In this document: one piece after another, positions 12,001-27,100 of the stretch
Position numbering within the stretch: position 1 is the stretch's first letter
Layout of the letters: every line of letters begins with the position of its first letter
Assembly (NCBI RefSeq): GCF_902652985.1
Contig: NC_047017.1
Location: forward strand, 19,592,001 to 19,656,000
Length of the DNA stretch: 64,000 nucleotides
Source of the DNA: Pecten maximus
Lineage: Eukaryota
Direction of reading: 5' to 3'
Program-made: the position numbers

Positions 12001-13934
12001 ATTTAGCAGTAAACATTTAGCATAAAGTATTTCTCATTTAGCAGTGAACATTTAAATGTTAGCATGTCATACCGGCTTTCCATAATTAAAATACAATGAA
12101 ATGCTTTTTGCTAAAAGTTTTATGCGAATTTTTTACTTTTGCTAAATGCTTATGCGAAATGCTTTAAGCATTTAGCATTCCTCATCAGGCATTTAGCATA
12201 TCGTACCATATCGATTTCCATAGAAAATAATTCATTCACAAATTTCTGTTTTCAACTAGATGTTCGCAACAAAAAAGGCTTTAAAATAAATTCCTTGGTT
12301 TCAAATCTTAATGTCACTCTTATTTAGATATTGCTGGAAAAATTATATTTCTTTAATGGTTCGCTTTGATTGACAATTTTTGAACCTTAAAAACATGATC
12401 AAGAGTGGATGGGGATAAGTGTGTCAAAAGTTAGCTACGATGTGTGGAGATGGAGGAGTCAACCGGTACCGAAGATGGGTGGAGAGGGAGGTGTCAAAAG
12501 TTAGTCAGGGTGGTTAGAGATGGTTCAGTGTGGGTGGGGTGGCGATAGAGGTGTCAATAATTGGCTCGTGTAGGTTGAGATGGGGGTATCAAAAGTTAGT
12601 CAGGGTTGGTGGAGATGGAGATGTCAAGAATTGGCTTGGGTAGGTTGAGATGGAGGTGTCAAAAGTTAGTCGGGGTGGGTGGAAATGGAGATGTCAAGAA
12701 TTGGCTTGAGTAGGTTGAGATGGAGGTGTCAAAAGTTAGTCGGGGTGGGTGGAAATGGAGATGTCAAGAATTGGCTTGAGTAGGTTGAGATGGAGGTGTC
12801 AAAAGTTAGTCAGGGTGGGTGGAGATGGAGATGTCAAACGTTAGCTAGTATGAGTGGATATAGAGATGTCAAAAAGTGTGTTATGGTGGATGGAGACAGA
12901 GCTTTAAAAAGTTAGCTAATAAAGATAGAGACTTCTTCCACAGTTTACAGATTTATCTCCAGTTTTAGACGTAAGAAATGTCTCTGTCAACCCCTAGGGT
13001 ATGACAAACCGCACTGAACCGGAAGTACTTACGGAACTTCTTTTTGAGTGACGTCACTATTGTCCCCGCGTTGTTATTTAATGTTAAATATCCGTATGAG
13101 ACACAAGTTTTATGAAATGACAAGATGTATTGTTATAAATATTAGAATAGTATCATCGATACCTTATTTTAGTGTCTATTTGAATGAATATTGTTGATTA
13201 ATTTTAGACCTATGTTTTCTTGTGTAATGAAATTGGTATGCATTTTTGGGGTCGTGATGGTACTTCTTCAAATGAAGTTATTTGTGCGCCGACCATATGT
13301 ATTTGTTTAATACAAACAAACCTTGATCACCGATGGGTGTGGAGGTGTCAGAATATACATTGTAGTAGGGATAGAAGTGCATAATGACGCTTTCATAAAC
13401 TCATGTGAGACATAGCACTGATAGATAACACCAGGAAGTGTGTTCTTATATACCGCTTATCGGCCACCGTATTTTGTGACGTTACATTTGATTTGGGTGA
13501 TCATCCATGACCGATTAACAGACTGTTAAGTTGTATAGACATGTCCGAAGTACCAGAAGATGTCGAAATTCGAACAAAGGAGATGCATACGGGCGGGGAA
13601 CCATTGCGAGTGATAGAGTCTGGCTTCCCCTCCCTCGGGGGCGACACCATACTGGATAAAATTCGTTTCATCAGGGAAAATTTTGACGCATACCGAAAAT
13701 TTCTGATGTATGAACCACGCGGTCACTATGACATGTACGGAGCATTGGTAGTACCAGCCGACAACAAGAAAGCTGACATAGCCACGATCTTCATGCACAA
13801 TGAAGGGTACAGTACGATGTGTGGACACGCAGTTATCGCCCTTGGACGATACGCTGTAGATTCGGAATTAGTCCGGAACCCTTCCAGTCCGGAGACCCGT
13901 GTGGCCATCAGTGGCGTAGGAAGTCGTCAAAAAG

Positions 13935-13966
<32 letters not shown>

Positions 13967-24100: not shown

Positions 24101-27100
24101 ACTCTCTCCCAAACTAGGTTAAGATTCTCATGTTACATAGTATTGTGTCCTACATTCTGGATAAAAAAATATATTATAATTTGATAAAACCACAGGGGTT
24201 AGGCGCGGACCCACGTCACAAAAAATAATTGTCAGACAATTATTATTATAGGATTTTACGTCCATGCTCAACGGACTTCATTAACATATCCTTATTTACA
24301 TGCGTCTGCATCTGGTTTGCAATTGCAGAAACAATCAGCACCCTTCTACTTCATGATACATATTACGTCAATGTCGAATAGCGAGATGATTCGTATCGCT
24401 TGAGATGCCTTGTTTCATTACGTAACAATATCATTACATTATACATGCATACAGATATATATTTTCCAAAAACACACGTCATAATTCTGAATGATATTCA
24501 TTGACAGTTATTAATAAAAAAGGGAAATTAATTTTAAAAACACCACCAAAAACTTTTAAATATGTATTTTGAAGGTTCTACTGATAATGTGTATTTATGG
24601 GTAAAGAGATTCAGAAACCTAGCCCTAGTAATCTCGCGGATGCGGCAGCTGTGCATCGCTACGTTATCTATTTGGTATATACATGTTCATGAATATTCAT
24701 TCATACCTATACTGGTACGTGTATAATATTTATATGTTTCAAGATGTTTCTGTGGATGTCCCAGAATATGGAAACGTGACCGTAGACATAGTCTACGGAG
24801 GAGCATTCTACGCCTTCGTAGCCGACGCGCAGTACAACTTCCGGTTGGGAGAGGTTCCCTTACAGGAAGTTAGGAACGCAGCCGGAGCTACTACAGGTGT
24901 TGTTATACATAACAAATAATACAAAATAACAAAACTACGGTAAATTTTACTATTGGCGTTACATTACATACAGACATAGTAGCACGCCTTGATCCGTATT
25001 TCTCGGGAAGCTGAGACTACGGACTATCTTGTGCTGTCATATGTTGTGTTCTTGGGGAAGATACTAAAATACACTATACCACTGTGGGAAGTATTCGCCT
25101 GCATTGTGTTTGTGAGGTAGCCACCAGCTACTACAAGGATAGACCGTCTCACAATTAAATGAATTGTGAGACGATGATGTCGATTTACCGACACATTTTC
25201 ACGTTTCTACAACTGCTCGACTTACATTAATGACATCATTAGATGTCAAATTGTGAATTATCATTAATGTTTGGTGACTTATTTTGATAAATGCGATGTT
25301 GGTAATATATGTACATGAATCATTCAATCGTTTGAAGAGCACCAAAAAGGAAGATGGAGCCCGCGAGAAACTTTTCTTCAGTCATCTTCCTGTCTGTGTC
25401 TACAAAGACATAAGTTTATTTTATCAAGTGTACATCCCATTGTTCTGCATTGTCTCCGCTAAGATGTAAATGGTTAATGGGCACCGCAACACAATGTCTG
25501 TGTCTTCTGCTGTTGGCGTGGATTTTTGTCTCTGCAAGTGTCTTGAACCACCATAAAACATCAATGTGTAATGCTGTCGTTGTAGTTCTGGTCGAGTTTT
25601 ATTGTTACTATCTAAATGTTGATTATCCTTAATTTAAGCTGATGTGTTTTGTTGATGTTCTTTACAACCAATGTATTTATCTGTGTTACTCTTTTTTGCT
25701 TTTAAATAAGACGCCCTTAAGAAGCAGTTAAAGCTAAGTCATCCGGACAGTGATGACCTCGCCTTTCTGTATGGGACCATCGTAACGGACGGACAAGACG
25801 GACAGGACGGATCCAGCGATAAACTTTCGTCTAATGTCTGTGTTTTCGCGGAAAGACAGGTATGAACTCCATGTAATTCAAGGCAAAGTACATACACAGA
25901 GTAGTCTATTGGTTATTGTATTATTATCATTATTATTTGTATATAATCATTTATACATGTCGGCACATCTCGGCCGATTCTCTACGATCATTACCGGGAT
26001 CGGCCGAGGTTAGCCGAATGATACTGTAGTTACAGTAATAGCACAATGGTATCTTCCTTAATTAAATTTCAACGAGTTGCATGAGCCCCTAGCTGTCATT
26101 GTTTGCCGATAATGAGATGTTTATAGTGAACCAATATATGAAAAAGAGCAAGCAAACCCATTCCCATTTATACATTTTTGATTGTTTGAATTTCTGTTTA
26201 ATGCCCTCTCCACTGTGACCATCTTCATATTCCCCCTTTCTTCTACACAGATTGATAGGTCACCCTGCGGTTCTGGAGTAACGGCCAGAATCGCCAGACA
26301 GTACCATAAAGGTTATGTCGGACTAGGACAAGCCAAGGAATTTCTGGGACCATCTGGAGCCAAATTCACAGCCAAGGCCGTAACGGAAGTGACGTATGGC
26401 GGATTCAAGGCAGTAGTGGTCGAGGTTTCCGGTAAAGGACACTACTGTGGCTCATCAACATTTTCTTTGGAGAAGGATGACGTCATAGGTCGTGGCTTTC
26501 TCCTTAAGTAATTTCTGGCCAACATGGCCATGATGGGAGCTGCTTTACTTGAGAATTTATTTGCAAATGGATTGTTAATACAAAAGGTATCCTATAACTT
26601 CTTGCGATTAATAGGCCTAACCATAGTTTTGAAAACACTTAATTTGGAAATCAATCAAGGAAAGTTGAAAGTGTAAAGTGGTTTTGTCCAAAATTGACTA
26701 ACGAAAAACAAAAATCTAGCTTTTATGTCTTTTTTCTGCATGTGCGCCAGGCTTTCTTTTCACCCTTTAGTAATGTATGCAGACGAAAACCCCAATGCGC
26801 TTACATCTTTGCATTCAATTCTTATACAACTTGCCAATTAAAACATACTTATATATGTAGTTTACATTGTGTTTGTATTATTGCTGGTTTACATTGTGTT
26901 TGTATTATTGCTGGTTTACATTGTGTTTGTATTATTGCTTTAACATTTTCTAAAACCATATTCCAAATAGATACGGCTGACGCTTGTTATTCTTAGACAT
27001 CGTACAAGAAATTCGCAGTCCGGTTTGCGTACAAATTAGAATTGTATTCAGTAAGGACGAATTAAGATTATGACGAGGTAATCAATTATTCTTGCCCTTT

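What the first reader, a model, noticed from the sequence alone, without database searches (positions are those of the whole stretch)
13437..26511. Four tandem exon1-exon2 cassettes feeding one shared exon3-exon4 (nascent variable/constant locus)
Seen: a segment from 104 bp upstream of the ATG to about 30 bp into intron 2 is present four times (ATGs at 13541, 17522, 20336, 23231; period about 2.8-2.9 kb excluding the transposon), but exons 3-4 occur once. A is transposon-disrupted, C is frameshifted, B is intact with a phase-1 donor compatible with the exon-3 acceptor at 25711. Inference: B could splice to exon 3 and give a full protein, as in UGT1A/protocadherin-style alternative 5' cassettes, or the array could alter dosage.
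Basis: partly seen in the sequence, partly recalled or inferred. Interest (0 to 1): 0.65.

Follow-up and report, generated by a model that had tools for sequence, protein, structure and literature searches.

The report
Partial tandem duplication in scallop gene
A scallop enzyme gene has its first two exons copied four times head to tail in front of one set of last exons; it looks like a young, partly decayed partial duplication, not a working variable/constant gene system, and whether an upstream copy is ever spliced to the shared exons is untested.

Summary
A 1.8-kb unit runs from 104 bp upstream of the ATG to 38 bp into intron 2. It occurs four times, at 13437, 17418, 20232 and 23127, with 98.4-99.5% identity. 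Exons 3 and 4 of this gene occur once.

- **The gene:** it belongs to the proline-racemase family (PF05544, "L3HYPDH-like"). Named RefSeq models of Pecten maximus match the window exactly.
- **The cassettes:** A carries a 1.2-kb transposon, C a 19-bp duplication, and B and D are intact.
- **The junctions:** the units are joined by about 1 kb found nowhere else in the window: an 11-bp minisatellite plus 350 bp ending in a 135-nt palindrome.

The UGT1A/protocadherin reading is only anatomical.
- The cassettes differ by at most 3 amino acids.
- Two of the three extra cassettes are already broken.
- Each cassette holds two exons, so downstream exon-2 copies offer identical competing acceptors. Exon 2 is 153 nt, so including extra copies stays in frame.

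A RefSeq "LOW QUALITY" model joins cassette C and an A-C-type exon 2 to exons 3-4, and no D-type protein is in the database. That is a computed model, not a transcript.

Verdict: a young partial tandem duplication of a known kind, of low to moderate interest.

The parts
13437..16449 (+). Cassette A. Exon 1 is 13541-13909 and 15118-15223, split by an insertion. Exon 2 is 16261-16413. This is the only cassette that keeps the native upstream flank.
   Evidence: RefSeq model P0131 (185 aa) matches it, including its private G-to-E change and 5 residues read from the insertion.
13910..15117 (.). Non-autonomous DNA transposon inserted in exon 1 of A. It has 15-nt terminal inverted repeats followed by poly-G and poly-C tracts. 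The target-site duplication is 4 or 6 bp (ambiguous). Three internal repeats of about 70 bp are present.
   Evidence: No other copy in the window apart from homopolymer matches.
16450..17417 (+). Junction J1. An 11-bp-unit minisatellite (16443-17067) is followed by a 350-bp unique part, which ends in a roughly 135-nt palindrome (17281-17417).
   Evidence: The DNA fold is -50.8 kcal/mol, z = -10.95, and 0 of 200 shuffles fold as well.
17418..19224 (+). Cassette B. Exon 1 (17522-17990) and exon 2 (19034-19186) are both open.
   Evidence: RefSeq model P0127 (214 aa) is exon 1 + exon 2 + 7 residues read through into intron 2.
19225..20231 (+). Junction J2: minisatellite 19216-19882 plus the unique part with the palindrome.
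20232..22036 (+). Cassette C. Exon 1 (20336-20823) carries a 19-bp tandem duplication (20700-20737) that shifts the frame. Exon 2 is 21846-21998.
   Evidence: RefSeq model P0262 carries the +6-residue trace of this duplication.
22037..23126 (+). Junction J3: minisatellite 22028-22773 plus the unique part with the palindrome.
23127..24934 (+). Cassette D. Exon 1 (23231-23699) and exon 2 (24744-24896) are both open. It is collinear with exons 3-4.
25711..25859 (+). Exon 3, single copy, 149 nt.
26251..26511 (+). Exon 4, single copy, with the stop codon. It carries the second catalytic residue, in the motif DRSPCGSG.
33102..35874 (-). Paralogue 2 of the same family. It has the same four-exon layout and is 68-80% identical to gene 1 exon by exon. 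Ends are approximate.
46149..49938 (+). Paralogue 3 of the same family, with the same four-exon layout. Ends are approximate.
   Evidence: (P0129).

Best explanation
This is a young partial tandem duplication inside a scallop gene of the proline-racemase family.

**What happened (inferred).** The 5' 1.8 kb of the gene (core upstream 104 bp, exon 1, intron 1, exon 2 and 38 bp of intron 2) was re-copied upstream of itself. The first event was non-homologous. It left about 1 kb of foreign filler at the junction: a minisatellite plus 350 bp ending in a long palindrome. This is the kind of junction produced by a template switch during replication or by break repair. Unequal crossing-over and gene conversion between the copies then raised the number to four and made their SNP patterns mosaic.

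**What the copies are now.** The three upstream cassettes lack exons 3-4, and with them the second catalytic residue. They are gene relics. A has been hit by a transposon and C by a 19-bp slippage duplication. B is still intact only because the array is young. Cassette D with exons 3-4 is the only uninterrupted collinear gene, at 343 codons.

**Consequence for the variable/constant idea.** If an upstream cassette were spliced to exon 3, the product would differ from the D product by at most 3 residues, or would carry extra in-frame copies of exon 2. The array therefore creates no functional diversity.

**Shown versus inferred.**
- Shown: the anatomy, the identities, the lesions, the family and the exon model.
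- Inferred: the origin mechanism, that D is the expressed gene, and how read-through transcripts would be spliced.
For: **Array and boundaries**
- Four units share both breakpoints, at 98.4-99.5% identity.
- The same junction occurs three times. Its unique part is nearly identical in all three: J1 and J2 differ by one base, J3 by three differences. It matches nothing else in the 64-kb window.
- The junction's palindrome ends 1 nt before the unit starts.
- Minisatellite lengths differ between junctions: 625, 667 and 746 bp.

**History of the copies**
- In the 5' part, 6 sites group A with C against B with D.
- In the 3' part, A and B have 0 substitutions in 930 aligned bases, while D has 14.
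- One site groups A with D.
- This mosaic is what exchange between repeats produces.

**Lesions:**

**No sign of selection on the cassettes**
- 10 variable sites in 622 exonic bases (5 replacement, 5 silent, by my reading of the codons).
- 22 variable sites in about 1186 non-coding bases.

**Family and gene model**
- 3 of 4 exon pieces match PF05544; the exon 3 piece does not.
- The pieces tile a 343-aa orthologue.
- The paralogues share the four-exon layout.

**Catalytic residues:** the first Cys is in exon 1 and the second in exon 4.

**Splice signals**
- All 4 of 4 exon-2 acceptors are identical.
- 3 of 4 exon-2 donors are identical; D differs at +6.
- Exon 2 is 153 nt in all four.
Against: **The RefSeq models do not fit 'D is the gene'.**
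- The only RefSeq protein found with exons 3-4 of this gene uses cassette C and an A-C-type exon 2, not D.
- No D-type protein appeared. None of the 120 listed hits exceeds 87% identity to D exon 1. None of the 27 hits exceeds 92% identity to exon 4. The cluster holding the models has only 2 members.

**D is not the most conserved copy.** D has Ala where A-C, all four scallop proteins aligned, the sequences P0128 and P0129 and the solved human enzyme have Val.

**Promoter position.** Only A keeps the native upstream region. D's upstream beyond -104 is junction DNA, so D's promoter activity is assumed, not shown.

**Origin.** The source of the junction DNA is unknown, because no eukaryotic genome DNA collection was available.

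**Copy number.** It cannot be verified without reads.
Confidence: 0.7

Rival explanations
1. One or more upstream cassettes (B, or an A-C-type cassette in general) are transcribed from their own short promoters. They are then spliced over the downstream cassettes to the shared exons 3-4. The locus would then work as alternative 5' cassettes, a newborn variable/constant arrangement.
For: - B is intact, and its exon-2 donor has the same phase as D's.
- Each unit starts about 10 bp upstream of a TATATA motif lying about 90 bp before the ATG (this is a motif match only).
- RefSeq XP_033734643.1 joins cassette C and an A-C-type exon 2 to exons 3-4, with 51 of 51 residues identical to exon 2 of A, B or C against 49 of 51 for D. 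No D-type model is present.
- B keeps the conserved Val that D has lost.
Against: - The RefSeq model is computed, is flagged LOW QUALITY and needs a frame correction in C. RNA from other individuals carrying A-C-type alleles of a simpler locus would give the same model.
- RefSeq also models A and B as separate truncated genes that read through the exon-2 donor.
- Downstream exon-2 copies have identical acceptors. From general knowledge of exon definition, they should be included rather than skipped.
- The cassettes differ by at most 3 residues, and 2 of the 3 extra ones are broken, so no diversity is produced or maintained.
- Only 104 bp of upstream sequence is duplicated.
Confidence: 0.2
2. 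The copy number, or the whole array, is an assembly error. For example, two haplotypes of a shorter array may have been stitched in tandem, or a long-read assembly may have mis-expanded it.
For: - In the 5' part, SNP types alternate A=C versus B=D at 6 sites, as they would if a two-unit array from two haplotypes had been concatenated.
- Differences between units (0.5-1.6%) are in the range one might expect between alleles in a bivalve (recalled, not tested).
- Very long homopolymers (29 G, 63 C) in the insertion suggest noisy reads.
Against: - The unit-to-junction-to-unit joins occur three times, with different minisatellite lengths and private differences.
- A, C and D each carry private lesions or substitutions.
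- The 3' parts do not follow the alternating pattern: A=B, C is close to them, and D is apart.
- At least one real duplication is needed to create any junction at all.
Confidence: 0.12

Closest known systems
Partial (3'-truncated) tandem gene duplicates, i.e. young segmental tandem arrays with gene relics
   Same: - Head-to-tail copies share breakpoints and are nearly identical.
- The copies lack the 3' exons.
- They are already accumulating a transposon insertion and a frameshift.
- Their SNP patterns are mosaic, as exchange between repeats produces.
   Different: - The copies lie inside the parent gene's own transcription unit, between the native upstream region and the remaining exons, not beside it.
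- The junction holds about 1 kb of foreign DNA (minisatellite plus palindrome).
[quoted passage not shown]
   Same: A tandem array of 5' units is followed by one shared set of 3' exons. The 5' part encodes the N-terminal part of the protein.
   Different: - There, each variable unit is a single first exon with its own promoter, spliced separately to the constant exons, and the units have diverged.
- Here each unit has two exons and an intron.
- Here the units are 98.4-99.5% identical.
- Two of the three extras are broken.
- Promoter use and splicing are unknown.
Tandem exon duplication with mutually exclusive or additive splicing (concept recalled, not read here)
   Same: Exon 2 is present four times with identical splice signals, and its length (153 nt) is a multiple of three. 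Inclusion of extra copies would therefore stay in frame.
   Different: The duplicated block also contains a first exon with its start codon and 104 bp of upstream sequence. No transcript data show either mutually exclusive or additive use.
trans-3-hydroxy-L-proline dehydratase (L3HYPDH/C14orf149) and the proline racemase family
   Same: - Best solved match is 7qpo, E = 3.3e-51 for exon 1 and 7.5e-25 for exon 4.
- PF05544 matches.
- RefSeq names the scallop proteins 'trans-L-3-hydroxyproline dehydratase-like'.
   Different: - The second active-site residue is Cys here, in both paralogues and in the four scallop proteins aligned. It is Thr in the solved dehydratase.
- A passage of PMC3958920 assigns Cys-Cys to racemases/epimerases and Cys-Thr to the dehydratase.

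Membership tests
Multiple-variable-first-exon cluster (UGT1 / protocadherin / GCNT2 type) | Tandem array of 5' units followed by a single common set of downstream exons | tested here: met
   There are four units, and exons 3 and 4 of this gene occur once.
Multiple-variable-first-exon cluster (UGT1 / protocadherin / GCNT2 type) | Each variable unit is one first exon offering only a donor site (definition from passages of PMC1885805) | tested here: not met
   Each unit holds exon 1, a roughly 1-kb intron and exon 2. All 4 of 4 exon-2 acceptors are identical, so downstream units offer competing acceptors.
Multiple-variable-first-exon cluster (UGT1 / protocadherin / GCNT2 type) | Variable units have diverged and encode different N-terminal parts | tested here: not met
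   The units are 98.4-99.5% identical at the DNA level. B and D differ by at most 3 amino acids. A and C are disabled.
Multiple-variable-first-exon cluster (UGT1 / protocadherin / GCNT2 type) | Each unit has its own promoter and is spliced separately to the constant exons | not testable with these tools
   No RNA data were available. Only 104 bp upstream, with a TATATA motif, is duplicated. RefSeq model P0262 joins cassette C to exons 3-4, but it is a computed, frame-corrected model.
Young partial tandem gene duplication | Head-to-tail copies with shared breakpoints and near-identity, lacking part of the parent gene | tested here: met
Young partial tandem gene duplication | Copy number is real in the genome and not an assembly product | not testable with these tools
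   No reads were available. Private differences and unequal minisatellite lengths argue for real copies.
Proline racemase family (Pfam PF05544) | Profile match above the curated cut-off | tested here: met
   Exon 1 scores 155.1 bits, exon 2 36.6 bits and exon 4 69 bits against a cut-off of 27. The exon 3 piece has no match.
trans-3-hydroxy-L-proline dehydratase (Cys-Thr type) | The active-site pair is Cys plus Thr (passage of PMC3958920; Cys104 and Thr273 in a passage of PMC9309405) | tested here: not met
   The pair here is Cys (MCGH, exon 1) plus Cys (DRSPCGSG, exon 4). The solved dehydratase 7qpo has DRSPTGSG at the aligned place.

The most novel reading that the evidence does not exclude
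The array is a multi-cassette gene caught at birth. Each unit carries a working core promoter in its 104 bp. Transcripts from an upstream cassette skip the downstream cassettes and join exons 3-4, as the RefSeq model with cassette C suggests. B, not D, would then supply the main intact protein. That would make this a natural snapshot of how variable/constant loci of the UGT1/protocadherin type begin, before any divergence.
Probability: 0.1. Interest if true: 0.6.

Novelty: new member of a known kind. Interest (0 to 1): 0.3.

Why it matters
As it stands, this is a tidy example of a common process: partial tandem duplication followed by decay, in a repeat-rich bivalve genome.

**Practical value, for annotation.**
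- The public models split the locus into two truncated 'genes' and one frame-corrected 'low quality' protein built on a broken cassette.
- The only uninterrupted collinear reading (D + exons 3-4) has no protein in the database searched.

**If an upstream cassette were really spliced over its neighbours to the shared exons,** the locus would show the first step towards a variable/constant gene. It could be used to ask how cassette skipping arises.

**A separate point worth an enzyme assay.** These scallop 'hydroxyproline dehydratase-like' genes carry the Cys-Cys pair of racemases/epimerases, so the automatic name may give the wrong activity.

Tried and rejected
**Origin of the junction DNA**
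- No second copy of the 350-bp unique part or of the palindrome exists in the window.
- I saw neither a CTRR end nor flanking TA target duplications by eye. I therefore do not call it a Helitron or a MITE.

**Rfam over 13000-27000**
- All 28 matches are miRNA-precursor models far below their gathering scores: 24 on the palindrome and 4 on the G/C tracts of the transposon in A.
- I read these as 'a hairpin', not as a gene.

**Other dead ends**
- Upstream regions of the two paralogues do not align with gene 1, so they could not serve as an outgroup for the breakpoints.
- No other copy of the transposon found in A exists in the window.
- The C-rich satellite at 4-7 kb and the G-rich one at 52-55 kb are not inverted copies of each other: 0 matches of 150 bases or more outside the query region.
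- A literature search for 'Pecten maximus' plus 'hydroxyproline dehydratase' found 0 papers. A search for partial duplication plus alternative first exons gave nothing relevant in its listing.
- Looking for a D-type full-length protein gave none.

**Left out or unavailable**
- Folding and complex prediction were not used, because no claim here rests on them.
- I did not build, search or fold a joined exon 1-2-3-4 product. Every search used single exons, and the only spliced sequences used are public RefSeq models.
Orthologous scallop loci therefore stayed unchecked.
- No supplementary files were consulted.
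Full report
**Source of the window.** The window has no N. Its G+C is about 36% and its CpG observed/expected ratio is 0.74, so it is not vertebrate-like and I do not take it for human. Three named RefSeq proteins of the scallop Pecten maximus match the window residue for residue, including private lesions of the window. The next best relatives are other scallops: Argopecten irradians at 87% and Mizuhopecten yessoensis at 85% for exon 1.

**Check of the observation.**
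- Self-comparison finds one unit four times. A four-way alignment places the copies at 13437-16449 (A), 17418-19224 (B), 20232-22036 (C) and 23127-24934 (D). Pairwise identity is 98.4-99.5%. The A-C figure is slightly lowered because C's duplication is misaligned against A's insertion.
- The unit starts 104 bp before the ATG and ends 38 bp into intron 2.
- tblastn with the four exon translations finds exons 3 and 4 of this gene once.
- A is interrupted by a 1.2-kb insertion at 13910-15117, and its frame stops at codon 146.
- C has a 19-bp tandem duplication at 20700-20737 lying between two copies of an 8-bp direct repeat. The frame shifts after residue 128 and stops at codon 143.
- B and D are open.

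**What the gene is.**
- Exon pieces 1, 2 and 4 match Pfam PF05544 (proline racemase); the exon 3 piece has no match.
- The best solved relative is trans-3-hydroxy-L-proline dehydratase 7qpo.
- The four exon translations tile a 343-aa Argopecten protein end to end. Only the two split codons are missing, and both read Asp as in the orthologue. The model D + exon 3 + exon 4 also has 343 codons.
- I searched exon by exon and left out the joined step.
- Two further paralogues with the same four-exon layout lie at about 33.1-35.9 kb (minus strand) and 46.1-49.9 kb (plus strand).

**The junctions.**
- Between successive units lie 968, 1007 and 1090 bp that are not part of the flanks of the array.
- Each junction consists of an 11-bp-unit minisatellite of 625, 667 or 746 bp and a 350-bp unique part.
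- The unique part is almost identical in the three junctions and absent from the rest of the window.
- It ends in a roughly 135-nt palindrome whose last base lies 1 nt before the unit begins (DNA fold -50.8 kcal/mol, z = -10.95).
- The array therefore has the structure flank-U-J-U-J-U-J-U-rest of intron 2.
- A simple unequal exchange between pre-existing repeats cannot give this structure.
- It fits a first non-homologous event that captured filler DNA, by template switch or break repair, possibly provoked by the palindrome and by the minisatellite-like run at the start of intron 2. Exchange between copies would then follow. This origin is inferred.

**History of the copies.**
- In the 5' part, 6 sites group A with C against B with D.
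- In the 3' part, A and B are identical over 930 bases, C has private changes, and D differs from A and from B by 14 substitutions.
- Such a mosaic is what gene conversion and unequal crossing-over in an array produce.
- The alternating 5' pattern could also arise if two haplotypes of a shorter array had been stitched together, which I cannot exclude without reads.
- Variable sites are about as dense in exons (10 in 622 bases; 5 replacement and 5 silent by my reading of the codons) as outside them (22 in about 1186 bases). The cassettes show no detectable constraint, though the counts are small.

**Test of the variable/constant reading.** Passages of PMC1885805 describe UGT1, protocadherin and GCNT2 clusters. 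[quoted passage not shown]
- Here only the gross layout matches.
- The products of B and D would differ at 3 residues.
- Two of the three extra cassettes are dead.
- Each cassette contains an internal intron and a second exon. A transcript that starts at B and leaves exon 2 of B meets the acceptors of exon 2 of C and D, which are identical to its own, before reaching exon 3.
- From general knowledge of exon definition, I expect those copies to be included. Exon 2 is 153 nt, so each inclusion adds 51 residues in frame.
- Products that stop after exon 2 lack the second catalytic Cys, which lies in exon 4. They cannot be active enzymes of this family.

**What the public annotation does with the locus.**
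- XP_033733467.1 (185 aa) is cassette A. Its exon 1 runs 5 residues into the transposon, then joins exon 2, then reads through into intron 2 for 7 residues.
- XP_033734642.1 (214 aa) is cassette B: exon 1, exon 2 and the same read-through.
- XP_033734643.1 (349 aa, 'LOW QUALITY PROTEIN') is cassette C. The 19-bp duplication is kept as six extra residues and the frame is corrected. It is joined to an A-C-type exon 2 and then to exons 3 and 4, skipping D.
- No D-type protein is in the collection.
- I could not see the evidence behind these models.
- RNA from other individuals carrying A-C-type alleles, aligned with the shortest possible intron, would give the same model. The truncated A and B models, which read through the exon-2 donor, point the other way.

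**Verdict.**
- The thing is a young partial tandem duplication with decaying upstream cassettes, a new member of a known kind.
- Splicing from an upstream cassette to the shared exons is possible and untested. Even if it occurs, it creates no diversity at present.

**Side findings.**
- These scallop genes carry a Cys-Cys active-site pair. A passage of PMC3958920 assigns this pair to racemases/epimerases, whereas the dehydratase has Cys-Thr (passage of PMC9309405).
- A's transposon and C's duplication lie within the same stretch of about 25 bp, in the two cassettes that share the same 5' SNP type.

**What stayed unchecked.**
- Reads and transcripts.
- Supplementary files of papers.

Noticed in passing
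window 23231-23699 and 26251-26511; paralogues at 33102-33359 (-) and 49678-49938 (+): All three paralogues in the window, and all four scallop proteins aligned (plus a Solemya model), have Cys at the second active-site position (DRSPCGSG). The solved trans-3-hydroxy-L-proline dehydratase has Thr there. By the Cys-Cys / Cys-Thr classification quoted in PMC3958920, the automatic name 'dehydratase-like' may give the wrong activity; racemase or epimerase is expected.
   Followed up: partly
window 13905-13915 (A) and 20700-20737 (C): The transposon insertion in A and the 19-bp duplication in C lie within the same stretch of about 25 bp in exon 1. A and C also share the same 5' SNP type. This is either coincidence (the spot lies between two 8-bp direct repeats prone to slippage) or a repair scar of the same element in C.
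   Followed up: partly
window 13910-15117: The 1.2-kb insertion has 15-nt terminal inverted repeats followed by homopolymers of 29 G and 63 C, and three internal repeats of about 70 bp. Tracts this long may be partly sequencing artefact. A similar G run lies at 27546-27569.
   Followed up: partly
window 17281-17417, 20096-20231, 22990-23126: A long palindrome of about 135 nt sits at the end of each junction. It draws many sub-threshold miRNA-precursor matches in Rfam, none near a gathering score.
   Followed up: yes
window 13437-26511 versus RefSeq models: The public annotation splits the locus into two truncated proteins (185 and 214 aa) and one frame-corrected 349-aa protein built on the broken cassette C. 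The uninterrupted D + exons 3-4 reading has no protein in the collection searched.
   Followed up: yes
window 33102-35874 (-) and 46149-49938 (+): Two further family members with the same four-exon layout make this a three-gene cluster. Intron 2 of paralogue 2 also holds a minisatellite (34255-34647, 15-bp unit).
   Followed up: partly
window 39283-44614 (+): Long open frames with reverse-transcriptase domains (41008-43080 at E = 3.6e-38; 44039-44614) indicate a retroelement between paralogues 2 and 3.
   Followed up: no
window 1-484, 4706-6840, 7335-7642, 12532-12896, 52109-54836: There are many minisatellite arrays, the largest with a 26-bp unit in about 110 copies. They explain the strong GC-skew peaks at 4-6 kb and 52-54 kb. 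The two skewed arrays are unrelated to each other.
   Followed up: partly
window 9043-9648 (-) and 59617-60000 (-): Neighbouring exons match a GPR180/TMEM145 transmembrane domain (E = 2.8e-22) and a sodium/calcium exchanger domain (E = 6.9e-15).
   Followed up: no
protein P0005 (Solemya velum, 560 aa): A model from another bivalve consists of a full-length family member followed by a second, diverged N-terminal half equivalent to exons 1-2. This is either a fused annotation of tandem genes or another partial duplicate of the same gene part.
   Followed up: no
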